DNA from: Hormiphora californensis | Taxonomy: Eukaryota; Animalia; Ctenophora | Assembly (NCBI GenBank): GCA_020137815.1 | Contig: CM035361.1 | Span: 1,240,001 to 1,304,000, forward strand | DNA length: 64,000 bases | Direction: 5' to 3' | In this document: positions 7,961-64,000 of the stretch, one piece after another | Layout: every line of letters starts with the position of its first letter | Numbering within the stretch: position 1 is the stretch's first letter | Program-made: the position numbers and the translations under genes | The notes under the pieces: model-generated | Databases searched by the model: none | What the model saw: only the letters and a program-made list of their open reading frames with translations | Told to the model about the DNA's origin: nothing

Positions 7961-15339
<7,379 letters not shown>

Positions 15340-16654: not shown

Positions 16655-16878
16655 TACCACTGTACCGGCCGTTTCACTCTCCGACCTAAAACAAAAATCG
16701 CAACCCCACAAAACTTCAAAATAATGAAATTCGCATCTCGCATGTCGTGTTGCATGTCGTGTCATGTTATTGACGCGCTCGCGTTCAACTCTCACACAGC
16801 AGCTGCAGAACATGGCGGGAAACATCGAGGAGTAGAGAGAGGGTCGGTGCCGAATCAAATATTTCTTGATCTTGATCT

Positions 16879-20854: not shown

Positions 20855-23777
20855 ATGGCGTCCAATAATAAGGCGGAAATACAGGTTGGAGGTAAGAGTC
20901 CCTTAAAGAATAATTCTTCTTTCTTCACTTCGTTCGGTGTGGCCAGTCACATCACGAATGAGATTTGACCAGGATTAATCGAAAAGGAGTTAAATGTAGA
21001 TTTGATAATTAATTAATGATCAGTTATTTTTGTGGATAACCATGTTTAAATTTCAGGCAAGTACAGACTAGTACGAAGGATCGGCAGCGGATCTTTCGGT
21101 GATGTCTATCTCGGCACGAACATCCTCACCGGTGAAGAGGTGAGATATTTTTGAACTTACCATTAGTATGGGGCCGGGGGAAGGGTTCCACTCTTATGTA
21201 CCCCGCTTTTAATACCCCCTAATTCCTAAACTGGTCATAATCTCTCACACAAGAAACTATCCTCCCAAAAACAACTCCTCTGTCCCATCTCCAACCCCCA
21301 TCTCTCTCTCCCTTCTCCCATCTCCAACCCCCATCTCTCTTTTCCAGGTAGCGGTAAAGCTCGAACCCATCAAGTCCCGGCACCCACAGTTGCTCTATGA
21401 GAGCAAACTCTACAAGATCTTCCAGGGAGGAGTAGGAATCCCTCACATTAGGTGAGTGTTATTATTACTTAATTGATATATTGGGGCGGTGGTATGATGT
21501 CATTTAGTGGTGACGTAAAAATACGCCATATCTAATTCATACATTTGTAGACAGCTCTCAAGAATGATGATACAATAACACTTGATTCTTGAAATAGATT
21601 TGCCTCAATAGATATCACACGTTAATTTTACTCATCTTCAAGTTTTGCTGTTCTCAAAACTTTCTACTTCTGAACTTTTTACAAATAATTTCCATGAAAA
21701 TCAATAAAATAAATACATTTAATTTGTCATTCCCCCTCTATTTTAAATCCTCCCACCAAATTTCAATTTTAAACTGAATTAAATCTCTCTCCCAGGTATT
21801 TTGGCCAGGAACAAGACTACAACGTACTCGTGATGGACCTCCTCGGGCCCTCCCTCGAGGATCTATTCAACTTCTGCAGCAGGCGATTTACAATGAAGAC
21901 AGTCCTAATGTTGGCTGACCAGATGATAGGAAGAATTGAGTTCTTACACAACAAGAACTTTATTCACCGAGATATAAAACCAGATAATTTCTTAATGGGA
22001 ATCCTGAAACAGTGCAACAAGGTAAATTGTAACATGACGTCATAATCTGGAAATATATCTGCATTATAATCGTTCTAGAAAGTGTTTTACAAAGATTTAC
22101 ACGTTTACACTTTAAAAAGATAAATCTAGCAGAACAGTCTTTTTTGTAGCACGTTGTAATCTCCTTAAGACCGTGAAGAATGTCTCATTCAAAATGATAA
22201 TATTTAACTAAACTTATCTCTTCAAGGTGTTCCTGATTGACTACGGACTGGCCAAGAAATACCGAGATTCCCGGACACGCCTTCACATTCCCTACCGAGA
22301 GGACAAGAACTTAACCGGAACGGCACGATACGCTAGTATCAACGCTCACTTGGGTATTGAACAGAGCCGACGGGACGACATGGAGAGCCTTGGATACGTG
22401 CTCATGTATTTCAACAGATCATCCCTACCGTGGCAGGGTCTCAAAGCAGGAACTAAGAAACAGAAATATGAGAAAATATCAGAGAGAAAGATGTCCACCC
22501 CCATTGATTTACTGACCAAAGGATTCCCGTCCGAGTTTTCCAGTTACCTCAACTACTGCAGAGGTTTGTTTTGTTTGTTTTTTTTTGTTTTTTTTGTTTT
22601 TTGTTTGTTTTTTTGTTTGTTTTTTGTTTGTTTGTATTTTTCAAACCCGCGGGGCGTGGGGAAGTGTTTTTTACCATTTATAGTCGTTTTATCTTTGTTT
22701 CTTTCTATCGCTGAATGATACAGGGTGTTCATTATGTGTGTTCATTGTTTGGCTCACACCACGCTCTGTAAGGGTTAGGTAGATTGAGGTGTTCATAATG
22801 GCACCACTCCAGCAGCTAATTAAGGGATGGCTCCCTGTATTATACCCTTCATAATCATGATAATGAATCCCGCCACACAATAGTTCACCTTTTAGTTGGC
22901 TGGTTGAGGACTAATTGAACCACTCAGATTTATGGGTGTGTGTGAAATCTTAATATGGTACCTAAACTAGAAAGTTCCGTGGTATTGAAAGATGAATCTA
23001 GAACCTTTTAGTGCTTGTTATACTACTAGCGTTATTATACTCCTTATTACAGGGTAGTCTATAAATTATAATCCCACACCATTTCTTGGTATCCCTTACT
23101 CGGAGATTTATAGAACCTCAATTTATCAAATAAACGCGTCCCCCGCGGTACGACTAATTAAGTCCAACACCTCATTTGTTATGTTTTAACCCTCCTTTAC
23201 ATTTGTAAAGAGGGTCGAGCTAGGCAACACCTCATTGGGAGATGGCATTAAGAAACACCCTGTACAATAACAGTACGGCCCCCGACTACATTTATCTAAT
23301 AACAAGATCCTTTCAGGGCTGAGGTTCGAGGAGGCCCCCGACTGCCCCTGACTACATTTATCTAATAGCAATCCTTTCAGGCCTGAGGTTCGAGGAGGCC
23401 CCCGACTACATGTATCTCCGACAGCTATTCCGACTACTTTTCAGAACCCTAAACCATTCCTACGATTACATCTTTGATTGGACCATGTTACGTCAGGTAC
23501 TGCTCTAATTATATATTTCTACAACGGGTACATTTAATTAGGTCATTATCGGTAATCCCGGTCCATTTATTAGGTCATTATCGGTAATTCCGGTCCCTCT
23601 CAATCAATGATCTCACCCCCCCCCCCCGATTAATATTCCCCAATATATAATCCCTATCCTCATTACACACAGCAAAAGGAGCAAGCCCAAGCAGCGAGTG
23701 CGAGCAACAGCGCAGCCGCCACGCCCGGAACCGCCAAGAAGAGGACAGAAACACGTGGACGGAGCAAGAACGAGTGA
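20855..23777 (+). CDS. CSNK1A1: Casein kinase I alpha, 7 exons (20855-20891, 21057-21139, 21348-21451, 21796-22021, 22227-~22564, 23381-23496, 23673-23777)
   Basis: [82 protein letters not shown]; short C-terminal tail. Confidence 0.93.
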
Positions 23778-26099: not shown

Positions 26100-28680
26100 G
26101 GCATTGAGAGACCCATGGGCCCCTTTTAAAAACAAGGGGGTTTTGGAAAAGAAGGGAAAAGGGGAAAAAAAAAAGGAAGGGGAAAAAGAAGAGGAGGAGG
26201 GGAAAAAAGGGGGAGAAAGGGGGCTTTTTCCCCGGGCCCTTTTTTTTTTCCCCCCCTTACTTTTAAACGGAAAAAAAAAAAAAAAAAATTTTTTTCGCAA
26301 TTAAAAAAAACCCCAAAAACGGCGGAGAAAGGGCTGTCTTCAGTACCCCCCAAAATGGATTTTAATGTTAAGTTGGTCCCATTTTAAATCACCTTTTAGA
26401 TCGGGGAACCCTCTTTTTAAAAAGGACGGGTTTCACCCGCTCTGACCCCCTTTTGGGGGAAATTAAAAAATTTTTCCCAAAAATTTTTTCTTTCCCCAGT
26501 TTTATCCTAAAATTTAAAATTTACCAGGGGAAAAAAAAAAAAAAAGGGCTCCCCGAATCCCTTTAAAAACCCCCGGTTTTTTTAAACCAAAAAAAAATTT
26601 TTTTTCTTCAAAAAAAAAGGGTTTCCTTTTTTTTCCTTGGCCCTTTTTCTCTTTTTTCCCTTTTGGGGGCCCTTTTTTTCCTTTTTTTTCCCTTTCTTTT
26701 CCTTTTTTTTTTCCCTTCCCTTTTATTTTTTTTTTTTTTTTTTTCCCCCAAAAACCCCCCTTTAAAAAACGGGGGTTTTTTTTTTCCCCCCCCGGCTTTT
26801 AAAAAGGAAAAAAAAAAAAAAGGAAAAGGAGAGGAGAAAAAAGAAAAAAGAAAAAAAAAAGGGGGGAAAGAAAGGGAAAAAGTTTTTTTTTCCCCCCCCT
26901 TTTTTTTCCTTTTTTTCCCCTTTCCCTTTTTCCCCCCAAAAAAATTTTTTTAATACTCTTTTTGGGAATGGGGGGGGTTTAAAAGGGGAAAAAAAAGAAA
27001 AAGAAAAAAAAATTTGAAAAAAAATTGAAAAGTATTCAAATTGGTTTTTTGAAACCCAAAAAAGGCAAGAAAAGGGGGGGAAGGGTTTTTTCTTACTGGG
27101 GGAAAAAAAATTTAACGATTTTTCTGAATTTTTAAAATAAGGGGGGATGGAAGGGGTTTTGGGGGAAAAACAAAATTTTTTGAATATGTAAAAAAAGAAG
27201 AAAATAAAGTTTTTTAAAAATTTTCCATTCGTAAAAAAAGTTTAAAATTTCTGCCAAATTGAAAATGAGAAAAAAGGGGGCCCGAAAATTAAGCAAACCC
27301 CCCGAAACGGAAAAAAAAAAGGGTTAAAAAAAAGATTCGGAAAGAAAATTGAAGGGGTTCTCCCAAAAAAATTTTGGAAGTTTTGGCAAAAAAAAAGGGG
27401 GGGGAAAAAAAGGGCAACAAAATTAAAAATTTTAGTCGGGACCAGGGGGAAAATTTTTATTTGACCCCCCCCGGCGATGGTTGGGTTAGGTTTTGGAGAG
27501 GAAAGGGGAGACGAGAGAGGGTGGTAGAAAAAGGAAAATTAAATTGAAAAAGGGAAAAGAGATGAGAGGGAGGGAAAGGAGGAAAGTAAAAAGAAAATAG
27601 TTTAAAAGTGGGCGTGGGGGGGAGTATTTTATGCTTGGGAAGAATTGTAAATCATAAGGCGAAAGTGTGCATATAATTTCTCATCATCATATCATACTAA
27701 AATTATCGATCACATACCCTACATAAAAAATGTTTAATGTGTGCGAGGGAAACTATACTGTACAGAGACCCTATATTTTACCTCTGAAAAAGGGAAAGGA
27801 AAAATTGAACGGTGGTTTTTAAAACGGCCGGTTTTTTAATGGTTTGCTTTATTTAAAGGTACATTTGGAAAAAATACCCGGGGCCAAACTTTTTTTTTTA
27901 ATTTTCCCAAAAGTTAAAAACTGTTTTTTTCCCCCAATTTTTCAAAAGGTTGTTTAAACGGGTTGAAATCCCAAAGTCCCAAAGGGGAGGGGTTTTCAAG
28001 TTCACAATGGTAAGAAAATTTAAAAGTTTTTAGGGCCGCAGGATGTTCTGAGTTCCTTCCTGGTCACCCCCTTTGCCGCATTCCCAAAGCAAACTCCGCG
28101 AATTTTGCCCCTTTTTTTTGGGGGGCGGGGGGGGCGGCGGGGAGGGAGAGCGGGAGGGGCGGGGGGGCGAGGGGGGGGGGAGGGGCCAAAAACCAAAACC
28201 CCGCCCCCCCCCCCCCCCCCTCCGTCCCCCCCCCCCCCCAAACACCCCTTCCAACCCCTCCCCCCCCTTTTCTTTTTCCCTTTGCCCCCCCCTTCCCATT
28301 TGCATAAAAGGGCCCCCCGCATCTCCCCGCAACCCGAACCCCGGGGGGGCCCCCCTATATCCCCCTTTGCAAAAAATACCCCTTTTTTCTTTTGGGGCTT
28401 CCCCTTTTCCCTTTTTCCCCTTTTCCCTTCTTTTATCCTTTTAATTTTAAAAGAAAATTTTTTTACCAAATTTTACCCTCCATTTAAACCCCCTTTTTAA
28501 AGGGGGTCTGAAAAAAAATATAAAGCCCTTAGTTTGAAAAGGATTTTACAAGGTAGTTTTTGGGCGCCAAGGGGTTTATTTTCCATTTTAAAAAAAACCC
28601 GCGAAAATTAGCGTTTTAAAAATTTCGGAACTTTTTAAAAAAAAAAAAAAGCACCAACTTTTTTGGACCCCACAATATCA
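26100..28680. other. Low-quality, homopolymer-inflated sequence (probable long-read error)
   Basis: Abrupt switch to long A/T/G/C runs; 26340-26440 is a corrupted inverted copy of 25990-26105. Confidence 0.8.
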
Positions 28681-35765: not shown

Positions 35766-35916
35766 TTTAGTAGAGGTCTCAACGTCTGCTATTACAGAAA
35801 ACTAACATGATGACAAAACGTCAGCACTATGAAATAAAAGGCGGCGTTTATCTCCACCCTAATTTAATCAAAACTAATTTATTTGTAAAACATTCAAACT
35901 TGGTATTCTTAGCAGA

Positions 35917-36869
35917 ATGGAACGAAGAAAGCAGCCAGACCGAAAGTGCAAAGATCCACCATCAGCCCATATTTTACAGTGGGAAGATCAGAGTGTTGCT
36001 GTTTTTTCTCCACGACCTTTCATAAAAACAGAACAGATCTTTGTAAACTCCTACCCACCAGTGAAAACGGAACCAGCTGACAGTGACTCTGGGGGTATCA
36101 AATTTGAACCAGACGTTGATTATAAAGTTGAACCTATTTTATTAACTCTCAAAACGGAACCAGTTGACCCTGAATATTTGGGAATCTTGCCCGATTGTGA
36201 TAACTTGGAACCGATTGGATGTTCTTCTCCCGTCTCTAATTCTTCTAACCTATCATCTCTTGGAATTCCACAAAATGGTAAGTTGCAGTTGCTGTTTGAT
36301 AGGATTGATCCAGAAGGTTTGGCATTTGTACGCTATTCGAATTAGTTAGATCCCATTATGCCGAATCTTTATTCCTTACTTCATTTTCCTCTATCTTTCT
36401 TCCTTCATTCCTTCCTTTTCAGGGGAAGGAAGTGAGGTAGACTCAGGTGCAGATATTCATCCCTCTTCTGCTGATTCCCAAACAGGACCACTAGCTGGCC
36501 CCAGTGAAGTGAACTTGGTATCTATTGTTAAGCGACCATTTCTGTGTGATGATTGTGGAAAAAGCTACACCCACCGGAGCAACCTTAATGAACATAGATT
36601 GGTCCACACTGGAGAAAAGCCCCATAAATGTGATGATTGTGGACAATTGTTCAGCCTTCGGAGCAACTTTAATCGCCACAGATTGGTGCATACCAGAAAA
36701 AGGCCGTACAAATGTGAAGAGTGCGGGAAAGGGTTTTCCCATTCTTCTCGCCTTAAAACTCACATGATGATTCATACTGGAGAAAGGCCATACAAATGTG
36801 AAGAGTGTGGACTGTGGAAGAGGGTTTGTTAGGTCTGATCAACTTAAAGCCCACAAGAAAGTTCACTAA
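35917..36869 (+). CDS. C2H2 zinc-finger gene A (exons 35917-36277, 36423-~36869); 3 fingers plus a frameshifted 4th
   Basis: N-terminal MERRKQPDRKCKDPP domain; CxxC..HxxxH fingers with TGEKP linkers. Confidence 0.85.
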
Positions 36870-37042
36870 GAAGAAAAATCCCTTGAAGAATCAACGCAAG
36901 AAAATCAGAATTAATTTGAAAGTGTGAGAATGCTTCAAAATATTTATTCGTATTCTGAAAGTTGTGAAATGAACGTGTATATAGATATAATGAGGTGACA
37001 TTATATGAGAAATGCAGTGTGAGCAAAACTTTCATTATCATT

Positions 37043-37220
37043 GTATAGGATGGGGAGATTGGGTGTGAGGAGTTGTTAGGATTTAGTAGGATTGCTTCTT
37101 CAGTTAAAAAAGTTGCTGTGAGGGTAGAGTATGTTTCTTTTCAGTGGTCTGGGCTTACTTGAAATTGAGATATTGTAGTGGTTTACATTTTATTGAATCG
37201 TTTCAGTTTTTTACAGATTT
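37043..37220 (+). pseudogene. Remnant of the Sen34 3' end and UTR (copy of 47102-47300)
   Basis: Near-identical to the Sen34 C-terminus and downstream sequence, with an internal deletion. Confidence 0.88.
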
Positions 37221-37228
37221 TGTCAATA

Positions 37229-37384
37229 CAGTCGGACCCCGATTTAACGGGATGCTCTGGGGAAAGGGTTTTGACCGGTAAATCGGGGTGCCCGGTATAT
37301 CGGGGTCAAACACCGTTAATTTCTTATATCGGGGAATTTTATCCTCCCGGTAAATCGAGGTTCCGGTAAATCGGGGTCCGAAAG
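37229..37384. mobile_element. pogo/Tigger-like MITE (family copy 2)
   Basis: TA|CAGTCGGACCCCGATTTAAC...TAAATCGGGGTCCGAAAG|TA. Confidence 0.82.
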
Positions 37385-37484
37385 TATTATTGTTAATTGG
37401 ATTTTTTCCATGATGCGTTTTCTCTGAAAGAACGTTTATATATCCGTTTCCTCACACCTTGTCCCCTATCCCATATTTAGCAGA

Positions 37485-39239
37485 ATGAATCGAAGAAAAC
37501 AGCCAGACCGAAAGTGCAAAGATCCACCATCAGCCGATACTTTACAATGGGAAGATCAGAGTGTTGCTGTTTTTTCACCACGACCTTTCATAAAAACAGA
37601 ACAGATCTTCGTAAACTCCTGCCCACCAGTAAAAACAGAACCAGCTGACACTGAAATGTACTCTGGGGGTATTAAATGTGAACCAGACCGTTGATTATAA
37701 AGTTGAACCTATTTTACTAACTCTCAAAACGGAACCAGTTGACCCTGAACATATGGGAATCTTGCCCGATTGCGATCACGTGGAACCGATTGATTGTTCT
37801 TCTTCCGTCCCTAATTCTTCTAACCTATCACCTCTTTCACTTCCACAAAATAGTAAGTTAATTAAACAGTGGCTATATGGATTTGATTTATTAAAAATTT
37901 AAATATATTTAAAGTTATAAATCAAATCCAGTTGTAGTGCACCGGGTGCCGACAGTGCTCTATCACAGGGTGAGAGCAAATACAAATTGAAACAAGTTAG
38001 TTAGTCAAACAAATGTTTCGCCAAACATTTGTTTGACTAACTAACTTGTTTCAATTTGTATTAAATCAATTACATATAAAATGATGGAAGAAGTTCTATC
38101 CACAATCCACATGCAATGTTTTAGCATGTAACATGTTATACCCCTATGGTGTGGAAGTTATTCTAATTTGACGAAATCTTTCTTCATTCCTTGTTTCTCT
38201 TTCTTTCTCCTTTCATTTCTTCTTTTTTTCAGGCGAAAGAATTGTGGTAGCCTCTGGTAAAGATATTCATCCCTCTCCTGCTGATTCCCAAACAGAACCA
38301 GTAGCTGGCCCCAGTAAAGTGAACCTGGTATCTGCTGTGGAGCAACCTTACCAAATGAGTTCCCTTCATCACCAGAGATTTATTCACTCTGAAAAAAAGC
38401 CCTACAAATGTAAGGAGTGTGGGAAGGGTTTTGCTCGATCTCGTAATCTCAAAGCTCACATAGTGATTCACACTCGAGAAAGGCCCCACAAATGTGATGA
38501 TTGTGGGAAGGGGTTTGATAGATCTGATACCCTCAGAAGACACTTAATGACCCATACCGGAGAAAGACCCTACAAATGTAAGGAGTGTGGGAAAGGTTTT
38601 ACCCAGTCTGGAACCCTCAAAACCCACATGATGATCCATACTGGAGAGTGGCCTTACAAATGTGATGAATGTGGGAAAGGATTTGATAAATCTGGTCACT
38701 TTAAAACTCACATGATGATCCATAGCGGAGAAAGGCCCTACAAATGTAATTATTGTGAGAAGGGGTTTGATAGATCTGATGTACTCAAAATCCACATGAT
38801 GACCCATACCGGAGAATGGCCCCACAAATGTAAGGAGTGTGGTAAAGGGTGCCCTACATCTGATTCTTTTAAAAAACACATGATGACCCATACGGGAGAA
38901 TGGCCCCACAAATGTAAGGAGTGTGGGAAAGGTTTTCCCCATTCTGGATCCCTCAAAATCCACATGATGATCCATACTGATGAAAGGCCTTACAAATGTA
39001 AGGATTGTGGAAAAGGGTTTAACACGTCTGGAAACCTCAAAGCTCACATGGTGATCCACACTGGAGAAAGGCCTTACAAATGTAAGGAATGTGGCAAAAG
39101 GTTTTCCTTGTCCTGTTACCTTAAAACTCACATGATGACCCATACGGGAGAATGGCCCCACAAATGTAAGGATTGTGGAAAAGGGTTTGCCAAGTCTGGA
39201 AAGCTCAAAAGGCACATGATGATTCATACTGGAGATTGA
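37485..39239 (+). CDS. C2H2 zinc-finger gene B (exons 37485-37851, 38233-39239); 10 fingers; +1 indel near 37690
   Basis: Paralogous N-terminal exon and C2H2 array; degenerate fingers continue to ~40034. Confidence 0.85.
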
Positions 39240-39418
39240 GGTCCTATAAATTTAAGAAGAGATCACCTTAAAACTCACGAGAAAATACACAACGAAGAAC
39301 ATTACTTAAAGAATCCATGCAAGGACATCAGAATTCATTTTAAAGTGATTCATACTGGAAAAATACCCTACAAATGTAGGGAGTGTAGGAAAGTGCTCAG
39401 CCAATCTTCATACCTTAA

Positions 39419-39999
39419 AGGGCCTAAAAACCCAAATTTTATTTAATTATTTTGAACACTACATCGTAACGAGCATGCTTTAGGAGTCCCAAAAAACATA
39501 GGTACACGCCCCACCCGCCCAATGTGAGCCCAGGGGGAGCCCCTCAAGTTGGGGCCCAGTTGGGGTCCCCTTGTAAACGCGCTTGTACTCCTTGAAATGC
39601 TAACAATATGATCCTCTCTGAAATTTGAAGTTTTGGGTAAAATTTAGCATTGTGTTTCAGGTGAGAACATAATCTTTCTTGTCTCTGTATTCTGGTAATT
39701 TTTCTCCTAGTTTTGATAGGCTTAAATAATAATTGATGAGAAAGATTATGAAATCTACTAAAACACAAGGATAGTTTCTATCCTAAATTTTATATTTGAG
39801 AGAGGATCATATTGTTAGCATTTCAAGGAGTACAACCGCGTTTACAAGGGGACCCCAAATGGACCCCAACTTGAGTGGCTCCCCCTGGGCTCACCTGGGG
39901 CCCGTGTGGCGTGTACCTATGTTTTTTGGGACTCCAATAGCATGCTTGTTACGATGTAGTGTTCAAAATAATTAAATAAAATTTGGGTTTTTAGGCCCT
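39419..39999. mobile_element. TTAA-TSD MITE with ~200-bp TIRs (Kolobok-like)
   Basis: TTAA|AGGGCCTAAAAACCC...GGGTTTTTAGGCCCT|TTAA, interrupting a vestigial finger SQSSYLK/VHVRRIHIR*. Confidence 0.9.
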
Positions 40000-40390
40000 T
40001 TAAGGTTCATGTTAGAAGAATTCACATACGATGAAATTAGATTCAAATGTGAAATTGCTAAGAAATAATGACACGTATTCAAAAAGTTTAGATTTTCGAA
40101 TGAACATTATAATGTGTCATATATGTGATATCTATTAGTGCCGATTAGTGTCTAGTTAAGTGCGTATTTGATTGAAACCATTTTTAAATTTTCTGTCCTT
40201 CTTGTTGCATCCAATCTCCAATGGGGATTCCTCATTTCTCTAACATTGATTTACCAACCCTTTGTTTGTACAACCCATCTCCCAAAATTACACCCTGATA
40301 TCTTTATAGGTTGATAATGACATAGTATGGCGTACTACAGAGAAACGAAGAGGACGTGTTTGAGGTGTGTATGAGGGTGAGAAATCCAAG

Positions 40391-41773
40391 ATGAAGGTAG
40401 CACATGAAGAGTTGAAGAAGGATATGTCCAGAGAGATTGAGATCTTGAGGGAAAAGGTTGATGGGTTAAAGCATTCAGTTGACGGGTTAAAGCATTCAGC
40501 AGGCGTTAAGGAGCTGGAGAACAGTATTCTGAGAAAAGAGATAAAACGACTGAAGTCATTACAAGAGGATACTGTACTGGTAAGTCATATTATTCTGAAT
40601 TTTCATAACATTTTGTTGTACTGGTAAAACCTTAGCTCTCTTTATGTCATCATATCAGAATTAGTATTGCCCCTGGTGTCTTGTGCAATGCTCTAAATCA
40701 TGATAGTTGATACATTGGTTCATGTTTTCAGTTGTCTGATTTAAAAAAGGAAGGAATGGAATGGAATAAGAACGGTATACTAAAACCCAGCAATAGCAAA
40801 GGACTGAAAGATCCTGGTAAGCAATAGCAAAGGACTGAAAGATCCTGGTAAGCAATAGCAAAGGACTGAAAGATCCTGGTAAGCCAGCAATAGCAAAGGA
40901 CTGAAAGATCCTGGTAAGCAATAGCAATAGCAAAGGACTGAAAGATCCTGGTAAGCCTGTCGTAATACAATTGCAAACCAATAAAGTCTACACTATTCAG
41001 ATACAGTCGGACCCCCATTTAATGGCCCCCGATTCAGCGGCACCCCGATTTAACGGACAAAACCATTTCCCCCAGGGTGCCGTAAATCGGGGTCCGACTG
41101 TATTACAATTTTCATTATTTCAGGTGTTTTGACTGAAATTGAAGATACAAGTATTAGCAATGTTTACACAGAGGCATCTAAAATCATGCCTACCACTGTC
41201 AGAGTTCTCCATCAAATACTTGGGAAAAAAGCTGTGAGTGATATAACTTTATAATTTTTATACTGCCCCGTGACCCTCCTGGCGCGGCTTCTTTACTTGC
41301 ATGAAGAAAACAAGTCTTGGCTCGATATTCCTCCCTCTAATTAATTAAATTTCAAATTACATCATCGTTATCATCTTTCCATTCTGAATTAGGGTGTTGC
41401 CGAAACGGAGTCTATGATAGGCTTTCTGATAGCAGTGATATCTAAAGCAATGAATCAGAAAAACAACCTGTTCGCTGCCCGGCTAGCTTTGGCACTGTCA
41501 GCCGCAGGTAATTTGTAAATAACTGGTCTTTCTATAATCTATACGTAATAATATATCTTTTAGGTTGCCATTATGACTTGATTGAACAGCTGTCGGCATT
41601 TGGAGTTACCTTGTGTAGGACGTCCTTGTTTTTACTAAGGAAGTACGCAACTGAGAACCAAGAATCCCTTCTTAGAACATTCGACCTCCGAGATCCTATA
41701 AGAGAGGTTGATTTTTGTATGACACCGGTGAAAACAACAATGAGTTTTGAAAAGTCGACAGTCGGAATAAATT
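40391..41773 (+). CDS. Five in-phase exons of a transposase-like (DUF6589-associated-type) fragment: 40391-40579, 40732-40816, 41124-41233, 41393-41507, 41564-41773
   Basis: GT-AG junctions with consistent phases: a coiled coil, then VYTEASKIMPTTVRVLHQIL and LIAVISKAMNQKNNLFAARLALALSAAGCHYDLIEQLSAFGVTLC. The family call is from recalled pattern only. Confidence 0.55.
41004..41100. mobile_element. pogo/Tigger-like MITE (family copy 3, short)
   Basis: TA|CAGTCGGACCCCC...AAATCGGGGTCCGACTG|TA. Confidence 0.88.
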
Positions 41774-41796
41774 GTAAGTAAATAACATCATGAGTT

Positions 41797-42705
41797 TTGC
41801 TACTTTTCTCCTCAACCCTTCATAAAAAACAGATCTATGTAAACTCCTGTCCACCAGTGAAAACAGAACCAGTTGACAATGAAATGTGCCCTGAAAGTAT
41901 CAAATGTGAGCCAGACGCTGATTATAAAGTTGAACCTATATTACTAACTCTCAAAACGGAACCAGTTGACCCTGAAACTTTCGGTATCTTACCCGATTGT
42001 GATCATGTGGGACCGATTGATTGTTCTTCTTCTGTGCCTGGTCCATCATCTCTTGGAACTCCACAGAATAGTAAGTCAACCAGTTGCACTGCTATCATAA
42101 TTTCATCTACATAAAGATTTTCTACTAGAATAGTCTACTAGTATAGCACTGTATATTTATATAGTATGTACATATATAATATATTGATATATTCCATCAG
42201 AACATTTAATTGTTAGGTACTTTGGGGCTATTATCTTATTTCCTTTTCAGGGGAAGGAAGTGTTGTACCCTCAAGTAAAGATATTTATCCCTCTTCTGCT
42301 GATGCCCAAACAGAACCACTAGCTGGCCCCAGTAAAGTGAACCTGGCATCTGGTGTTAAACGACCATACCAGTGCGATGATTGTGGAAAAGTGTTCAGCC
42401 TTCGTCGCAATCTTCGTCACCACAGATTCATCCACTTTGGAGAAAAACCCTACAAATGTAAGAAGTGTGGAAAAGAGTATACCCTGTCTGGAAGCCTCCA
42501 TAAACACACATATATGATACATACTGGAGAAAAGCCCCATAAATGTAAAGAGTGTGGCAAAAGGTTTAGGGACTCTGGAAGATTAAATCGCCACATGATG
42601 ATCCATACTGGAGAACGGCCGTACAAATGTAAGGAGTGTAAAAAAGCGTTCAACCAGTCTTCAATCCTCAATCATCATATCAGAACAGTTCACAAACGAT
42701 CATGA
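41797..42705 (+). CDS. C2H2 zinc-finger gene C; exon 1 is 5'-truncated (~41797-42070), exon 2 42251-42705; 4 fingers
   Basis: Homologous to A, B and D but lacks the MERRKQ start. Confidence 0.75.
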
Positions 42706-42967
42706 ATTTAGATTCAATCGTGAAATTGCTAAAAAATATTAACTCGTATTCCAATTTTAGAAATGTTTTATTTTAAAATAAACGCAATGTCTCATGTATC
42801 TGATATCTATTGGTTTCTTGTTAGTATTTTATTAATCCGGTTTATAAATTTTCTGTCTTTTGTTGACTGAAACCTCCATTTCTCTAACCTTGATTGGTCT
42901 TCCTCCCCTTTCCCTCGTTTTCACGCTCTTTACCTCAACTAAAACCATCTATCTTATGTTTAGCAGA

Positions 42968-44463
42968 ATGGAACGAAGGAAACAGCCAGACCGAAAGTGT
43001 AAAGATCCACCATCAGCTGATATTTTACAGTGGGAAGATCAGAGTGTTGTTGTTTTTTCTCCACGACCTTTCATAAAAACAGAACAGATCTTTGTAAACA
43101 CCGACCCACCAGTGAAAACAGAACCAACTGACAATGAAATGCACTCTGGGGGTATTAAATGTGAACCAGACGTTGATTATAAAGTTGAACCTATTTTACT
43201 AACTCTCAAAACGGAACCAGTTGACCCTGAAACTTTCGGAATCTTACCCGATTGTGATAACTTGGAACCGAGTAAATTTTCTTCTCCCGTCCCTAATCCT
43301 TCATCTCTTCCACTTCCACAAAATAGTAAGTTACACAGTAGCTTTATGGATTTGATTTATTAAATCGTACTACTATAGAATGGAAGAAGTTCTATTATAT
43401 TAGAAGTTTTAGCATGTTATGCTACTCTTGGGTCAAAGTTCTTCTAATTTGCCGAAATCTTTCTTCATTCCTTCCTTTCCACTGTCTTTCTCCTTTCATT
43501 CCTTCCTTTTCAGGGGAAGGAAGTGCGGTAGCCTCGAAAAAATATACTCATCCCTCTCCTGCTGATTCCCAAATAGAACCACTAGCTGGCCCCAGTAAAG
43601 TGAACCTGGTATCTGGTGTTAAACGACCATTTCAGTGTGATGATTGTGGAAAAAGCTTCAGCTGCCGGGGAACCCTTAATCGCCACAGATTGATCCACAC
43701 TGGAGAAAAGCCCCATAAATGTGATGATTGTGGAAAAGGGTTTACTAGATCTGCGAACCTCAAAGTTCACATGATGACCCATACCGGAGAAAGACCCTAC
43801 AAATGTAAGGAGTGTGGTAAAGGGTTTTCCTTGTCTCAAACCCTCAAATTCCACATGATGATTCACACTGGAGAAAAGCCCCATAAATGTGATGATTGTG
43901 GAAAAAGCTTCAGCTACGGGGGAACCCTTAGTCGCCACAGAATGATCCACACTGGAGAAAAGCCCCATAAATGTGATGATTGTGGAAAAGGGTTTACTAG
44001 ATCTGCTAAGCTCAAAGTTCACATGATGACCCATACCGGAGAAAGACCCTACAAATGTAAGGAGTGTGGTAAAGGGTTTTCCTTGTCTCGAACCCTCAAA
44101 TTCCACATGATGATCCACACTGGTAATAAGCCCCACAAATGTAAGGACTGTGGTAAAGGGTGTGCTACATCTTATTCTCTTAAAAAACATATGATGACCC
44201 ACTCGGGAGAATGGCCCCACAAATGTAAGGAGTGTGGGAAAGGTTTTTCTGAGTCTGCAACCCTCAAAACCCACATGATGATCCATACTGATGAAAGGCC
44301 TTACAAATGTAAGGATTGTGGAAAAGGGTTTACCAAGTCTGGAAACCTCAAAGATCACATGCTGATTCACACCGGAGAACGGCCTTACAAATGTAAGGAG
44401 TGTGACAAAGGATTTTTAAGATCTGATCACCTCAAAGCGCACATGTTTGTCCATGAAAATTGA
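42968..44463 (+). CDS. C2H2 zinc-finger gene D (exons 42968-43325, 43514-44463); 10 fingers; degenerate fingers continue to ~44720
   Basis: Intact N-terminal exon plus C2H2 array. Confidence 0.9.
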
Positions 44464-45333
44464 AAAACACATAATGATCCATTCGGGAGAAAGACCCTAC
44501 AAATGTGAATATTGTGAAAAAGGGTTTGCATTGTCTATAAACCTCCAAAAGCACGTCATGATGATTCATACTGGAAAATGGCCTTACAAATGTAAAGAGT
44601 GTGGGAAAGAATGTGCTACATCTGATAGTCTTAAAAAGCACATGATCATGCATGATAATTTATACCGGAGAAAGGCCCTACAATGTAAGGAGGGCCCTAC
44701 AATGTAAGGAATGTGGGAAAGCATTGTGAGAATATTTATTCGTATTCTAAAAGTTATGATTTTGAGTTGACTCAAAATATCATATACACATGACTTACCA
44801 GTTTTTTTAAGTCGCCTGAAATTTCAAAAGTTTTTCAACAAATTTACATTTAGTTATGAAACCCGATAGCTGATTTATCGGTCGTTTGAAGATTTTGCGC
44901 GCTCATGATAACTGCTAGCTGGGGGATTTAACACCCTGCTCGCGATTTATCAGGCCAGTGTCCTTTTTCACGCGTTTCTCTTCATTTGAATAACATGCGT
45001 GTAAAATTCTAAGTATTGAAAATGTGTGTAAACACACAGTTCTGTCAACAAAAGAAAGGGGAAACATGTCTGCAACACGTTTCAATGCTATCTCTCTCAT
45101 AAGGAGTGAAAAGAATCTCATTCTCTCTCATTGTCTCTTTTACTGTTCACTACCTCTGACAGTGTGTATTGCCCCTAATCTTTCTCTCTCTTTCTCAAAC
45201 ATGTTAGGAACAGTAGACAGTAAGTCTACACACATTTTCAGGGTATCTGTTGACTATTTACCAGCAGTTCTAGTGTGTTTCACCTTGTGTTGTGTCTCTT
45301 ATTTGTGTGTAATTACTATCGGGTTTCATAAAA

Positions 45334-45526: not shown

Positions 45527-45609
45527 CTTCATTTATCAGTTTGTTTATATTCCTTTCCGCGGGGGTTTCCTTCATTCCAAACCCATCTTCTTCCCTAGTT
45601 AGGATTCTA

Positions 45610-47243
45610 ATGATACCGGGAGTTGGGTTTATCAGCTGCGTCAAGGATACACCCTCCCAAAACTCCAACTCTACTCCATCATTGTTTCAGGTATCTACTC
45701 CTTCCTTACCCCACCTTCAGGACTCTACTCCCTCCTTCCCCCACCTTCAGGACTCTACTCCCTCCTTCCCCACCTTCAGGACTCTACTCCCTCCTTCCCC
45801 ACCTTCAGGACTCTACTCCCTCCTTCCCCCACCTTCAGGACTCTACTCCCTCCTTCCCCCACCTTCAGGAATCTACTCCCTCCTTCCCCCACCTTCAGGA
45901 CTCTACTCCCTCCTTCCCCCACCTTCAGGACTCTACTCCCTCCTTCCCCCACCTTCAGGACTCTACTCCCTCCTTCCCCCACCTTCAGGACTCTACTCCC
46001 TCCTTCCCCCACCTTCAGGATTCTACTCCCTCCTTCCCCCACCTTCAGGACTCTACTCCCTCCTTCCCCCACCTTCAGGACTCTACTCCCTCCTTCCCCC
46101 ACCTTCAGGTCTCTACTCCCTCCTTCCCCCACCTTCAGGACTACTCCCTCCTTCCCCCACCTTCAGGACTCTACTCCCTTCTTCCCCCACCTTCAGGACT
46201 CTACTCCCTCTTTCCCCCACCTTCAGGTCTCTACTCCCTCCTTCCCCCACCTTCAGGTCTCTACTCCCTCCTTCCCCCACCTTCAGGACTCTACTCCCTC
46301 CTTCCCCCACCTTCAGGACTCTACTCCCTACTTCCCCCACCTTCAGGACTCTACTCCCTCCATCCCTGAAATTCCCATTAAAATAACCCGAACACGAGAC
46401 AACAAGTACCTGTTATGGGATGTGGAATCTATCAGCGGTTTACGTGACCACTTCGGAGTTGTTGGAACACCCATTGGTACCTTGCCAAGGAAACCTCGAC
46501 AAAATAAGGTGTTGGGGTTACCAGTGTGTTTTATGAAGGAGCAGGTGTACTTGTTATGTGTTGCCGGGGTTGCCATAGTAGTGGATATACCGGGGGACCT
46601 TCCCAAATCACAGGATTCAGAGGTGTTTTTGGCTGGACTTGAGGGGTCGTATAAAGCACAAAACAGGCATCTCCAGGCATCCATTTATCAGAGATCACGT
46701 GACTTTGTTGAGAATCCAAGGGAAGTTCCAGAACATTTAGCGCTCGATAAGCCTGTTAATGTCCATTCACCTGAGTACTATCTACAACGTGTATTTGAGG
46801 TTTCCCTTCCTCGACACTGGATTACAACCGCATCTAACCCGGCTCCCCTACCGACCCTAACACCACGAGAACGCTCCAGGGCCATGGTGTTACATGATCT
46901 GTACAGGAGACGGTATGCCGTGACATCAGGTCGGAAGTTTGGCGGGGATTTCCTGGTTTATCCGGGTGATCCCTTGGTGTTTCACGCTTGGTACGTTGTC
47001 AGAGTGACGGGTTGTCAGGGTGATGATCACGTTGTCAGAGTGACGGGTTGTCAAGGTGATGATCAGATGGGAGGTAGGGAAATTAGGAAGAAGGGGATTA
47101 CTGTACAGGATGGGGAGATTGGGTGTGAGGAGTTGTTAGGATTTAGTAGGATTGCATCTTCAGTTAAGAAAGTCGCTGTGATGGCCACTGTTTTCGGGGA
47201 GAGGGTAGAGTATGTTTCTCTACAGTGGTCTGGGCTCACTTGA
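45610..47243 (+). CDS. TSEN34: tRNA-splicing endonuclease catalytic subunit Sen34 (conserved core 46362-47243; start uncertain)
   Basis: YLLWD..LRDHFGVVGTPIGTLPRKPRQNKVLGLP, DLYRRRYAVTSGRKFGGDFLVYPGDPLVFHA, RIASSVKK, YVSLQWSGL; catalytic Tyr, His and Lys present. Confidence 0.9.
45694..46361. repeat. 30-bp minisatellite (CTCTACTCCCTCCTTCCCCCACCTTCAGGA)n, about 22 copies
   Basis: Direct reading. Confidence 0.95.
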
Positions 47244-59199: not shown

Positions 59200-62100
59200 T
59201 CTAAATGATTCAGTTTGAGATGACTCTCTCTCTCTCTCTCTCTCTCTCTCCCCCTCTCCTTCACCCCCCTCTCTTTTCTTCTCTCTCTCTCTCTTCCTCT
59301 CTCTCTTCTCTTCTCCTCTCTTTTTCCCTCTCTCTCTCTCTCTCCCCTTTTCTCTCTCTCAGGATGGTGGGGCGTGTAGAAGCTAATGGTGTTGTTTTTT
59401 TTTAAATTTTTTAGAAAAAGATGATTTCTGTCTTTTCTTTTCTGTCGCCCTGCCCCTGTCTGTCTTTTTTCCCTGTCCGTCTGCAAAAGGATGAAATCAA
59501 AACTCAGAAACCAAACGTTATGAGGGCCATCATCCCCCTCTGTCTCTCTTTTCCCTCTCTCTTCCTCTTACTTTTCTCTCTCCCCCTCTCTCCCTTCCTC
59601 TCTCTCTCCCCTTCTCTCTCTTCTTCTCTCTCTCTCCCCTTTCCCTCTCTCCTCTCTCTCTGTCCTCCCCTCTCTCACTTTTGGGCTCTCTCCCCTCTCT
59701 CTCCTCTCTCTCTCCTCCTTCTCTCCCCCTCTCTCCCCTCTCCTTTTGTATATAAAATGTCTCACTTTCTCTCTCCCCTTCTCTCTCCCCTTGTCTCTCT
59801 CTCCCCTCTCTCTCTCTTTTTCTCGGGGAAAAGAAACACAAAAACCCGGGGTAAACTCTTTCTTGAGTAGCACTACCGTATTACTTCTCTCTCTGTTTTT
59901 CTGGTTCTATATATGCTTCACGTAGATGGCAACGCCATTTCATTTTGATTTATTGTGGTGGTGTGGTCTCCCTTCTTTGTTATGTTCTAACCCTCCTTTT
60001 AAATTTTGGGGGGGCGGGCGAAAAAAAGTCTAGAAAGGGAAAACCCCCTTTCCCATACGGGGCCCGGGGGTTTTGTTTTTATCTAGATATACTACTACTA
60101 GTAGTAAAATACTAGTGTTTAGTTAGGTGTGGTCTGTGTGTGTGTGAGATTTGACTACAAAAAACTTGATATACCCCCCCTCTTTTTGGGTTTAACGGGT
60201 TTTTTACCACACTCACAAAACAACAATCACAGCCGGGACATACATTTAGCATTTTTTTTTTCCACTGCCCCCGGGCCAGTTTCATGCTCAGAAGTTTGGG
60301 GGGGGGAAACAAAAACAAACCGGATACCCCCAAATATCTCCAAATCTGGGCACTTCAAATTATTTGCGCTATAATTCGCCATATTTTTCTTCTGTTTGCC
60401 TTTTCCCCCAGAGTAAAAAGTGTCTATAATACGCGTGTGAAAACCTTTTAAATCAGTAAATCATGGGTTTTTTATATTTAGATCTTTAAACTTTTTTAAG
60501 GCGATGATTTGTATAGCCCACGTGGTGTTTTGTCTTTTTCATCCTTCTCCCCCCCTTTTTTCCCGCTTTTAAAGTCATTTTTGGGGATCAATTCAAACCA
60601 CTTTTTTTTGGGCCCTTTTTTAGGGGTTTTTATTTGGGTTTTTTTCCCCCCCCCTCCCCCAGCTTTCCCTTTTAAAACTATCTTTTTTTCCCTCCTCTCT
60701 CTCCCCTCTCTCTTTTCCCATCTCTCTCTCCTCTCTCTCCTTTTTCTCCTCCCTTCCATCTCTTTCCCCCCCCTTTTTCCTCCCCCCCTTCCCCTCCCCC
60801 CTTTCTCTCTCTCCTCCCCCTTTTTTTTCCTTCCCTCTCTCCTCATTATCCGTACACTGACACGTCACTTCCGGTCGCGCGCCTACAGACAGCCTTACAA
60901 TTGTGCCTCTCTTCAGTCACGTGGTATCATCACATGGCACTTAGTGAGCCCAAAAAATGTATCGCACTTTCAAATTTTTGAGAGAAAAGGGGGAAAAAGG
61001 GGAGAGAGAGAGGGAGAAAGAGAGAGAGAGAAAAGAGAGAGAGAGAAAAGAGGGGAAGAGAAAGAGAGAGAGAGAAAGAAGGGTTTAATTTGTTTAAAAC
61101 TGAAAACGTTCCTAATCATGGGACATGCCTTAGCCTCGTAAATTTAGCACGCGGTTTTATCCCCAAAAAGAGGGGGGAGAGAAGAGAAAAAAGAGAGAAC
61201 GAGAGGGGAAATGCTATTTTTGCTCAAAAACGTGTTTTTAGAAATTTCTATTATATCTACCTGCGCTAAAATTGTTTTTGTTTTTTTTTTAGGGGTTCCT
61301 TGCGGGCTAAATTTTTTATTATCAATTTAAATTTTTTCTCTCTCTCTTCTTTCTTTTTTCTCTCTCTCTCTCTATCCCCCTCTCTCGTTCTTTTCTCCCC
61401 TCTCAACTCTTCTCTCTCTCCTCTCTCTCTCTCTTTTCTCTCCTCTCTCTCTTTTTCTCTGTATGTTTTTGATCTTGGTTTGGATTGATTTGATTGTTTA
61501 CTTTAAGCAAACAAAAGTTTAGATTGTGTCAATCCATCATTTGATAAAAATCCCCTTTTATAACGGTAGTAGAATTAGGCCCTGTTAGTTCTGAAAATAT
61601 TGAATGGAGTTTTGGTAAAAAGGAGGGGGGGGTGGGTATTTCGGGGTGGGAGAGGGATACTCAGCCAGTGGTTTTGCTTATTTAAAAAGTCAGGGATGTC
61701 GAGGGGGGCACGTTATTAGGATTGCTGCCCCCTAATGGTACCCGAAAGGCAACATCGATGACGTGATTAGCTGACTCCCGGGGACTTTATCTCTCTCTCC
61801 TCTCTCTCCCCTCTCTCTCTTCATCCTCCTCTCTCCTCTCTCTCCTTTTCTTTTTCTCTTTCTCCTCTTTTCTCCTTTTCCCGTCTCTCTCTCTTCATTC
61901 CTCTCTTCCCCCGTCCTCTCTCTCTCTCTCTCTCTCCTCTCCCTCCCTCTCTCTCTCTCCCTCCCCGGTCTCTGCGTGTGTCTAGGCGTCTGTGTTGTCT
62001 ACCTCTGTCTGCACTGTTTTGAGACTGCATTTTTGGCCCCCCACTGCGACAAACCCAGGGATCAACCCGAGATAGTGTGACAGACTGAGACAGACAACCT

Positions 62101-63350
62101 GTGACAGATTAACTGACGACCCCCGGACAAAACAACAAAACATCAAAGGGGTTGTGGGCTATTTTTTGGGGAAAAGGTAATCTTAACTATTTCCCCTCCT
62201 TCTAAAATATTACCCCTCCTTCCAAACTATTTCCCCTCCTTATAATATATGTCTTCTCCCCTTCGGTGCCTCTCAATATAATTTAAATGCGATGAAACCC
62301 CGATGAAACACGTGATAGAATTATTTTAGAAAAAAGAGAGTTTAAAAAAAAGAGAAAAATTTTAAATAAAATGAACAAAAAAGTTAGAGAGGAAAGGGGG
62401 TAAAAAAAAAATGATAAAGGGGAATAAATGGTAAACGGAAATGATGAACTTCCAAAATCAATTAATTTAGTTTGTTTCCCCCCTTTTTTTTCTCTCTCTC
62501 TCCTTCTCTTTCTTCTTTCCCCTTTTCCTCTCTCTCTCTTTTCTCCTCTATCTCCCTCTTCTCTCTTCTTTTCTCTCTCTCTCTCTCTCCCTCTCTCTCT
62601 CTCTTCTCTCCCCCTCCTCTCCTTCCCCCTAAACTCCTCCTCCTTTTTCTCTCTCTCTCCCCTCTCTCTTCTTCCCCCTCTCTCTTCCCCCCCTCGTTTC
62701 CCCTTCCCTTTTCTTTTGTTATATATTGCGGTTAACTAAATGAAGATCGGCCATTAAATTAGTAACCGCTTTAAAACAGTTATTTTGTTGTTGTCAGTGT
62801 ATTATTTTCCTTACTAAAAGACTTCTTAATCTCCATTCTGGATGCCATCTAGCCGAGATCAACACCAGCACTCTCTTCCTGGTGTTCCCTAATTATTATT
62901 GTATGCGATAGAGAGATGTCTTTGACCCTGAGCTTGTAGGACCATTGTAAAATTTTGAGACATACTGTAAATCTTTGGTTTTCACTGCTTGAAATTTTGA
63001 TTTCAAAACTCAAAAAAGGGAAAAGTTTTATTTACTTTGGAAAATTTGGGGGAAACTAAGGGCCAAGATACGGGAAAAATGTGACGTGAAATGGAGCTAC
63101 TTTTAAATTTTAACTAGGGAAAGTTTTTACTGAAAATTTTTATGAAGGAGTCAAAACTTTATCCCAATTCATTCTCATTTTGATTTTTTGTCTACTGATG
63201 ATTTGGGGGCCTCCTTTGTGGGGCACCATGAAAATGTGTATAGGGCCTTAAAAAAATGCTGTTGTTTTTAAATTTTTAAAAAACTCTCGCCGGCTTTTAA
63301 ACCCCCCGTTTGAGCTTTTCTTTTTGATTTCGGCCCCAAAGGGGCAGGAT
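59200..63350. other. CT/GA-rich, largely low-quality sequence
   Basis: Corrupted microsatellites and homopolymer inflation; 63000-63270 is an error-rich copy of 63480-63745. Confidence 0.7.
63190..63247 (+). ncRNA. Hammerhead ribozyme type I, degraded or mis-sequenced copy
   Basis: GTCTA CTGATGA TTTGGGGGCCTCCTTTGTGGGGCACCAT GAAA ATGTGTA TAGGG. Confidence 0.6.
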
Positions 63351-63667
63351 ATCTATCTTTTTCCTCATCTACTAAACTTTGCTATAATGCAAAGCTCCCT
63401 CAATTTATTTGTGGTTGAGCTCTCTTGTGGATCTGAGGACACGTACGACGTCTGGTTTTTGAGGAACAATGATCAAAATGGAATACAGATTACACACTCC
63501 AAGAAAGGGAAATGGTTGATGTACTTGAAAACTGGGGAATCTAGAGGTCCAAGATACGAAGATGTGACGTGAAATGGAAACTACTAATTCTAACTAGGAA
63601 AAGTTTGACTGACTGTTTTTTATGAAAGGGGTCATACTTTATCCAATTCATTCTCATTTTGATCTTT

Positions 63668-63721
63668 GTCTACTGATGATTGGTGCCTCCTCGTGGGGCA
63701 CCATGAAACATGTGTATAGAC
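63668..63721 (+). ncRNA. Hammerhead ribozyme type I (minimal, self-complementary stem III)
   Basis: Stem I GTCTA/TAGAC, core CTGATGA (63673-63679), 9-bp stem II TGGTGCCTC/GGGGCACCA, GAAA (63705-63708), stem III ACATGTGT, GUA cleavage triplet ending at 63716. Confidence 0.85.
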
Positions 63722-63753
63722 CTTAAAAACTGCTGTTGTTTTTAATTTGGTAT

Positions 63754-63839
63754 CACTGCTTGTACAACTTATAACACTGCCCAGTGTTATAAGTTCTGAC
63801 TTATAACACTGGGCAGTGTTATAAGTTGTACAAGCAGTG
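63754..63839. mobile_element. Tiny palindromic element (CACTG...CAGTG) built from two nested palindromes
   Basis: CACTGCTTGTACAACTTATAACACTGCCCAGTGTTATAAGT is mirrored around TCTG. Confidence 0.7.
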
Positions 63840-64000
63840 CTATAACACCGCTGTACTTAGAACTCCTCACTCAATGTTTCTGTCACACTTAGAAAGAAAA
63901 AGCGTGTACGAACTCTCTCTTTTCTCTTCTTTATGTCACACTCACGAGCCGCTTGCAGCATCGATATCAAGATAACAGTTACGAACTCCCGGACCCACCC

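What the first reader, a model, noticed from the sequence alone, without database searches (positions are those of the whole stretch)
63000..63745. Tandem hammerhead ribozymes 478 bp apart: candidate ctenophore retrozyme or Penelope pLTR system
Seen: a complete type I hammerhead at 63668-63721 with conserved core, 5-bp stem I, 9-bp stem II and a GUA site. Its stem III (ACAUGUGU) is too short to close stably in a monomer but is fully self-complementary with G-U pairs. A second, error-rich copy lies at 63190 within a ~250-bp direct repeat. Established: minimal hammerheads with palindromic stem III that act as dimers are typical of Penelope-like element pseudo-LTRs and animal non-LTR retrozymes. 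Inference: a transcript spanning both copies could self-cleave to a ~480-nt unit that may circularise. No RT or GIY-YIG ORF is visible, which suggests a non-autonomous element. The 10.1-11.1 position is a non-canonical U-U.
Basis: partly seen in the sequence, partly recalled or inferred. Interest (0 to 1): 0.85.

Follow-up and report, generated by a model that had tools for sequence, protein, structure and literature searches.

The report
Comb-jelly hammerhead retrozyme, Penelope-style insertion
This is one copy of an abundant, protein-free repeat in what is likely a comb-jelly genome: it carries a predicted self-cutting RNA motif twice and was likely pasted in by a borrowed Penelope-type reverse transcriptase, which makes it an ordinary member of a known class in a phylum where we found no published example.

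Summary
The type I hammerhead at 63668-63721 is real: it is the only descriptor hit in the window, with 0 equally good hits in 100 shuffles, although Rfam misses it. It belongs to a repeat family with tens of copies or more in two organisms, whose copies end at about 63749, 33 nt past the predicted cut. Here the family forms one 757-bp insertion: a 5'-truncated 283-bp copy plus a 474-bp unit, flanked by a 14-17-bp target duplication. Contigs without the insert join the two flanks, so a simple overlap artefact is unlikely. This is the Penelope partial-tandem footprint with no ORF, most likely a non-autonomous non-LTR retrozyme. The upstream copy lies in unpolished sequence, so its ribozyme and the unit-to-unit junction are unverified. 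Cleavage, expression and a 476-nt circle are not shown. One hint of in vivo cleavage: three contigs begin at the cut site, one a closed 52-nt loop from an RNA library. The motif is not 'minimal' and may cleave as a monomer. The scan has noted similar elements in other animal genomes, and leader-fused hammerheads elsewhere in this one. Verdict: new member of a known kind.

The parts
62945..62991 (+). Left part of the host repeat that was hit; ends in the left target-site duplication (62974-62991, one extra base)
   Evidence: High contig depth at 62945-62987 in X1, X3, X5; four X1 joints link 62970-62976 to 63746-63749; aligns to 63746-63762
62992..63274 (+). 5'-truncated upstream copy (283 bp, pseudo-LTR-like), error-rich
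   Evidence: 233 matches in 291 columns to 63481-63749; 49 of 51 differing letters lengthen homopolymer runs; carries the read-majority letter at 4 sites where the downstream copy departs
63190..63246 (+). Upstream hammerhead copy; core boxes and GUA (ends 63240) present, stems smeared, C15.2 missing in the assembly
   Evidence: Sequence, alignment; no contig confirms 63203-63245 in X3, X5 or X8 at 85% likeness
63275..63748 (+). Full unit of the repeat (474 bp as assembled), no ORF; 63275-63380 error-rich
   Evidence: Deep contig cover from 63381 to 63749 in 4 of 4 DNA runs; contigs bridge 63430-63511 and 63457-63542; all six frames interrupted
63668..63721 (+). Type I hammerhead ribozyme, predicted cut after A63716
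   Evidence: no variant at >=10% listed in the catalytic boxes; 63701 C>T keeps a G-U pair, 63716 A>T keeps an NUH triplet
63717..63749 (+). 33-nt tail from the predicted cut to the family's fixed 3' end (inferred reverse-transcription start)
   Evidence: 11, 12 and 13 contigs of X1, X3, X8 and 7 of X5 leave the window behind 63749 with unlike flanks (agreement 0.46-0.54)
63746..63762 (+). Right target-site duplication (14 bp certain, up to 17 with T-rich microhomology to the element's end)
   Evidence: alignment; empty-site joints in X1
63751..63842 (.). Nested palindrome of the host repeat (44-nt arms, 32-bp internal unit); target, not part of the element
   Evidence: deep cover in X1, X3, X5 and none in X8

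Best explanation
The locus is a 757-bp insertion of a multicopy, ORF-less repeat (a truncated 283-bp copy followed by a 474-bp unit, each ending in a hammerhead motif plus a 33-nt tail, inside a 14-17-bp target duplication), likely a non-autonomous Penelope-derived retrozyme copied in by a Penelope-type enzyme supplied in trans. Shown: motif, layout, target duplication, multicopy family, fixed 3' end, no ORF. Inferred: a Penelope GIY-YIG/RT protein nicked the AT-rich host repeat, started reverse transcription internally 33 nt downstream of the ribozyme cut site, copied one whole unit and ran on for another 0.6 unit, on a circular or multimeric RNA. Inferred: transcripts of such tandems cleave after GUA, weakly as a monomer and better as a double hammerhead through the palindromic stem III, releasing a ~476-nt monomer that can be ligated to a circle and serve as the next template. 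Neither cleavage nor the circle was observed.
For: Motif beyond chance. Family abundance: single contigs over the pre-ribozyme segment have depth 10,900 (X3) and about 6,900 (X5) against about 193 and 223 on the unique left flank; depth is not a copy number but implies tens of copies or more; also present in a second organism, X8. Fixed 3' end 33 nt past the cut, with unlike flanks: an RT priming on the cleaved 3' end would stop at 63716, so initiation is internal, as shown for anole Poseidon (PMC11167929). Truncated copy placed 5' of a full copy, variable-length target duplication and a 30-40-bp tail are the Penelope-like signature. Target duplication and empty-site joints. The two parts of the unit are contiguous in the family, not a private fusion. 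Double-hammerhead fold -41.8 kcal/mol vs -31.0 for two monomers. The two listed variants within the ribozyme are compatible with function. Three contigs (2 in DNA run X1, 1 in RNA library X16) begin their match at 63715, within 2 nt of the predicted cut.
Against: No contig covers 63230-63362, so the tail-to-unit junction is known from this one error-rich copy only and long tandem arrays are not shown. No compensatory double change was seen, so covariation is not shown. 63701 C>T, listed for X5, is not listed. RNA libraries gave only 5 contigs at depth 2-4 in 3 runs and may hold DNA. The cut-to-cut unit does not fold better than shuffles (z -0.68; clean part z -1.43), unlike the strongly self-paired retrozyme circles described. 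In the unit's context stem I is predicted to form only 0-14% of the time, and the cofold minimum (-43.7) is an inactive fold. No partner Penelope ORF was found; no genome was available to look. Only 1 of 9 predicted Xenopus dimers cleaved in vitro. Empty-site joints come from one run (X1) with 21-29 nt on the shorter side.
Confidence: 0.68

Rival explanations
1. The two pieces are ends (pseudo-LTR fragments) of an autonomous Penelope-like element. Its reverse transcriptase copied 474 nt, jumped back to its start site and copied 283 nt more, making a one-off tandem with a private junction. No self-perpetuating 476-nt RNA exists.
For: The junction at 63274/63275 is unconfirmed. Contigs behind 63749 are heterogeneous rather than one dominant read-through. 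Many ~80-nt ribozyme-plus-tail pieces sit in long unique contigs (e.g. X1 record 7, X3 record 14, X8 records 30-32; X5 record 13), as for truncated Penelope copies. The unit folds no better than shuffles. Earlier scan notes propose this for other genomes (unchecked).
Against: No ORF remnant in six frames of 63275-63760 (though errors limit this). The 5' part of the unit is covered about as deeply as the 3' part. The internal junction reads on into T/A-rich letters resembling the common first letters seen behind 63749 (weak, AT-rich).
Confidence: 0.22
2. The tandem is an assembly artefact: one copy was duplicated or two loci were misjoined in an unpolished long-read zone.
For: 59250-63350 is rich in homopolymer runs (0.13-0.43 per 250-bp bin, against 0.02-0.16 upstream). 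No listed contig spans the insertion. Both flanks of the insertion are repeats.
Against: The two copies have different left neighbours (target duplication vs 5' part of the unit), which an overlap cannot produce. A matching duplication brackets the whole 757 bp, and empty-site contigs join exactly these flanks. Each copy has its own errors, and the upstream copy keeps read-majority letters at 4 sites.
Confidence: 0.06
3. It is a SINE-like repeat moved by a LINE, with the hammerhead as a passenger.
For: A LINE-type RT with close ctenophore relatives lies at 8322-10466; LINEs also make target duplications and 5' truncations (established knowledge).
Against: No shared tail with that LINE or anything else in the window. 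No poly(A) or simple-repeat tail; no Pol III A/B box match. Partial tandems with a hammerhead near the end are typical of Penelope-like elements.
Confidence: 0.04

Closest known systems
Metazoan non-LTR retrozymes (coral, mussel, axolotl; Cervera and de la Pena 2020, PMC7229834; Li, Clavereau and Pollet 2026, bioRxiv 10.64898/2026.07.22.740005)
   Same: Non-coding unit with one type I hammerhead, GC below 50% (0.39), head-to-tail repeat, target duplication longer than 4 bp. Axolotl HHR_Amex2 has the same 2-bp stem III with tetraloop and U-U at the base of stem II.
   Different: Only 1.6 units here. The unit (476 nt) is longer than the 150-450 bp of the 2020 paper but within the 51-972 bp of the 2026 preprint. 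It is not predicted to be strongly self-paired. Circular RNA not shown. Host likely a ctenophore, a phylum not sampled in the sections read.
Hammerheads in pseudo-LTRs of endonuclease-bearing Penelope-like elements (Cervera and de la Pena 2014, PMC4209133; anole Poseidon, Frangieh et al. 2024, PMC11167929; Craig et al. 2021, PMC8557442)
   Same: Long helix II, 5-bp helix I, small palindromic helix III; truncated copy 5' of a full copy; fixed 3' end downstream of the ribozyme; many solo truncated copies; variable target duplication.
   Different: No RT/GIY-YIG ORF between the ribozymes (476 nt instead of ~3 kb). The 3' end is 33 nt past the cut, against about 85-92 in Poseidon. U-U replaces the conserved G10.1-C11.1 pair. 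Helix III is retained, so it is not the 'minimal' form.

Membership tests
Type I hammerhead ribozyme | Conserved core boxes with three helices, open helix I, NUH cut site | tested here: met
   core consensus recalled and consistent with PMC4209133
Type I hammerhead ribozyme | Match to an Rfam hammerhead model | tested here: not met
   No hammerhead family among 32 matches at E<=10 or at gathering score; a library limit, not a structural failure
Type I hammerhead ribozyme | Structure kept among copies (covariation) | tested here: inconclusive
   Two function-compatible single changes, no change listed in the core, no double change; contigs selected at >=85% likeness
Type I hammerhead ribozyme | Self-cleavage | not testable with these tools
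   Only a hint: 3 contigs start within 2 nt of the predicted cut
Minimal PLE hammerhead (min-HHR) | No helix III/loop 3 beyond the conserved nucleotides; G10.1-C11.1 | tested here: not met
   2-bp helix III with tetraloop and U-U at 10.1/11.1; fits the 'small palindromic helix III' variant
Non-LTR retrozyme | Non-coding unit of a few hundred bp, GC<50%, one type I hammerhead per unit | tested here: met
Non-LTR retrozyme | [quoted passage not shown] | tested here: inconclusive
   1.6 units; upstream ribozyme and junction lie in unpolished sequence with no contig cover
Non-LTR retrozyme | Multicopy family, target duplication longer than 4 bp | tested here: met
Non-LTR retrozyme | Abundant, highly self-paired circular RNA of unit length | tested here: inconclusive
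   5 shallow contigs in 3 RNA libraries, no unit-length back-joint detectable; folding not better than shuffles
Autonomous Penelope-like element | RT and GIY-YIG ORF between pseudo-LTRs | tested here: not met
   No ORF in the insertion; the one RT seen among the window's long ORFs has LINE-type relatives
Penelope-mobilised insertion | Partial tandem, fixed 3' end just downstream of the hammerhead, 5' truncation, variable target duplication | tested here: met
Penelope-mobilised insertion | Homology of the unit to the pseudo-LTR of a Penelope element in the same genome | not testable with these tools
   No genome held

The most novel reading that the evidence does not exclude
This is an active ctenophore retrozyme whose hammerhead cleaves in vivo and whose cleaved or circularised RNA is what the Penelope enzyme copies. 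Genomic pieces and a 52-nt closed loop that begin exactly at the cut site would be its direct footprint. [quoted passage not shown]
Probability: 0.25. Interest if true: 0.6.

Novelty: new member of a known kind. Interest (0 to 1): 0.33.

Why it matters
If confirmed, it places hammerhead retrozymes in ctenophores; three full-text searches found no paper reporting this. The locus also joins retrozyme anatomy with a clean Penelope insertion footprint, supporting the proposed Penelope origin and mobilisation of animal retrozymes. Copies that start at the cut site could settle whether the ribozyme acts in vivo, which is still open for Penelope-like elements. The class itself is already described, and the scan has found several better-assembled examples elsewhere.

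Tried and rejected
Rfam found no hammerhead. No whole genome is held, so no genome-wide copy census or partner search was possible. The exact ribozyme pattern had 0 hits in metagenome, viral and GTDB collections. A segment near 63441-63485 is predicted to pair with both flanks of the ribozyme and block stem I, but 26 of 100 shuffles did as well, so it is not claimed as a regulatory switch, although one RNA contig changes strand there (63459 to 63669). The ctenophore spliced-leader end (motif from PMC8527503) has 0 matches in the window at up to 2 mismatches. No Pol III boxes. The ESM Atlas look-up of the window's GPCR gave no usable taxon. Lack of cover at 63230-63362 is not read as absence, because the window is error-rich there. 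A sequence look-up in earlier findings returned nothing, as did a look-up near this place. bioRxiv 10.64898/2026.03.07.710320 mentions ctenophores only as an analogy.

Full report
Observation. The hammerhead at 63668-63721 is present as described. Stem I has 5 pairs, stem II has 9 pairs with one G-U, U63680 faces U63704 at its base, and the GUA triplet ends at 63716. It is the only descriptor hit on either strand of the window, also with a relaxed descriptor that admits minimal and U3-A8 variants. In 100 shuffles of the window there were 3 loose hits and none as strong. Rfam does not report it. In the monomer, stem III can form two pairs closed by a tetraloop. Two copies can instead form an 8-bp intermolecular helix, and the double-hammerhead fold scores -41.8 kcal/mol against -31.0 for two monomers; the cofold minimum of -43.7 is an inactive fold.

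The second copy. 62992-63274 aligns to 63481-63749 with 233 matches in 291 columns. Of 51 differing upstream letters, 49 equal a neighbour, against a background of 50-67%, and the zone 59250-63350 is enriched in homopolymer runs. The upstream copy therefore lies in unpolished long-read sequence, and its ribozyme cannot be called intact or broken. The downstream copy is not clean either. At 63527, 63579, 63623-63630 and 63642 the read majority differs from it, and the upstream copy has the majority form. Both copies are compatible with one young template plus independent errors.

The family. No genome is held, so I used public runs: 20 of 24 listed runs hold part of 63380-63760, none more than 47% of the words. 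Four DNA runs (three of organism A, one of organism B) cover 63381-63749 deeply. Single contigs just before the ribozyme have depth 10,900 (X3) and about 6,900 (X5), against about 193 and 223 on the unique left flank. Depth is not a copy number, but it implies tens of copies or more. Contigs leave the window behind 63749 with unlike flanks: 11, 12 and 13 in X1, X3 and X8 and 7 in X5; these tables are cut. The family thus has a fixed 3' end 33 nt past the predicted cut. Several long contigs hold only about 80 nt, from 63669-63679 to 63749; these are solo ribozyme-plus-tail copies or diverged subfamilies. Within the ribozyme two variants are listed: 63701 C>T (41-52% in 4 of 4 runs; it turns G-C into G-U and is not listed again for X5) and 63716 A>T (15% in X8; GUA to GUU). 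None is listed in the catalytic boxes or at the U-U position. No compensatory double change was seen.

The insertion. 62974-62991 and 63746-63762 are a direct repeat, and four joints in run X1 link 62970-62976 straight to 63746-63749, with 21-29 nt on the shorter side. The element is therefore one 757-bp insertion (283 + 474 bp) into another high-copy repeat, with a 14-17-bp target duplication. A simple overlap artefact would duplicate flanks as well and cannot give two copies with different left neighbours inside one target duplication. The junction at 63274/63275 remains unconfirmed, because nothing could be laid on 63230-63362. All six frames of the unit are interrupted. The window's one long RT ORF (8322-10466) has LINE-type relatives and shares no tail with the element. 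Of the 120 listed relatives of that RT, 5 carry an organism name: Mnemiopsis twice, Bolinopsis, a bird and a bacterial bin. The host is likely a ctenophore; this is not proven.

RNA. Three metatranscriptomes gave 5 contigs at depth 2-4. They may be DNA, so expression is not shown. One 82-nt contig in X16 has, by eye from the printed loose ends, the same first and last 30 letters, that is a closed 52-nt loop. Its joint falls at 63715-63717, on the predicted cut. Two contigs of DNA run X1 also begin their match at 63715. These three records hint that an RNA end exists at the cut site and is copied or ligated; a single molecule could explain the loop. The cut-to-cut unit folds no better than shuffles (z -0.68), and a predicted blocking helix is not beyond chance (26 of 100).

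Mechanism. Shown: motif, layout, duplication, fixed 3' end, multicopy family, no ORF. Inferred: a Penelope-type RT/GIY-YIG protein acting in trans nicked the target and began copying internally, 33 nt downstream of the cut site, then copied 1.6 units from a circular or multimeric RNA. Anole Poseidon starts internally, downstream of its hammerhead, prefers AT-rich targets, needs protein for ribozyme cleavage and does not need cleavage for insertion in vitro (PMC11167929, parts 1-2 of 4 read). Partial tandems, 30-40-bp tails and variable target duplications are the Penelope signature (bioRxiv 10.1101/2021.04.23.441226 and PMC8557442, passages). More-than-unit copying of a circle was proposed in PMC4209133 (parts 1-2 of 4). 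The main rival is a one-off tandem of two pseudo-LTR fragments of an autonomous element; only the recurrence of the junction can separate the two.

Comparison. It works like a non-LTR retrozyme (PMC7229834, parts 2-3 of 6; bioRxiv 10.64898/2026.07.22.740005, parts 1-3 of 5). It meets the tested features of unit size, composition, copy number and target duplication; the tandem-of-intact-ribozymes and circular-RNA features are inconclusive. It is not a minimal hammerhead and not an autonomous Penelope element. In the 2026 preprint only 1 of 9 predicted dimers cleaved, so activity should not be assumed.

Novelty. Searches for hammerhead plus ctenophore, hammerhead plus ctenophore genera (top 25 of 700 listed, none with the word hammerhead) and Penelope plus ctenophore showed no report of a ctenophore hammerhead or retrozyme. 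Two of three supplement files of PMC4209133 have no ctenophore term. The third file, the supplement of PMC7229834 and the preprint supplements could not be seen and may list one; subscription papers are not covered. The scan's own notes describe similar elements in other animals and leader-fused hammerheads elsewhere in this genome (unchecked). Verdict: real feature, new member of a known kind, interest 0.33.

Noticed in passing
window 63715-63749 (run X16 record 3; run X1 loose ends): An 82-nt contig from an RNA library closes on itself as a 52-nt loop made of the ribozyme's 3' product plus 15-16 foreign letters, joined at the predicted cut; two DNA contigs also start at 63715.
   Followed up: partly
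window 63667-63679: Many family contigs start at the first bases of the ribozyme with unlike flanks. One loose-end consensus in X5 (4 contigs, agreement 0.57) resembles by eye the 3' end of the ctenophore spliced leader given in PMC8527503; AT-rich, untested, but it echoes two earlier notes on leader-hammerhead fusions in this genome.
   Followed up: partly
window 63751-63842 and 62945-62991: The host repeat is a nested palindrome (44-nt arms, 32-bp internal unit with copy-number variation, fold z -16.6), abundant in organism A and uncovered in organism B; possibly a foldback or miniature DNA element.
   Followed up: partly
window 63459 and 63669 (run X17 record 4): An RNA-library contig switches strand between two segments predicted to pair; template switch or an inverted genomic copy.
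   Followed up: partly
window 63848-64000: A further high-copy repeat starts right of the palindrome and runs off the window.
   Followed up: no
window 15599-20005: Large inverted duplication (95-99% identical arms) around a ~32-bp tandem array.
   Followed up: no
window 8322-10466 (-): 714-codon open LINE-type RT frame with closest named relatives in ctenophores.
   Followed up: partly
window 35900-44500: Cluster of duplicated C2H2 zinc-finger genes (motif recognised by eye).
   Followed up: no
window 45603-47243 and 22212-22718: tRNA intron endonuclease catalytic domain (Pfam E 1.5e-11) behind a tandem repeat, and a casein-kinase-1-like exon (recognised by eye).
   Followed up: no
window 59250-63350 and about 26500-28500: Homopolymer-smeared, apparently unpolished long-read zones; annotations there are unreliable (for the first, translations for the second).
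   Followed up: partly
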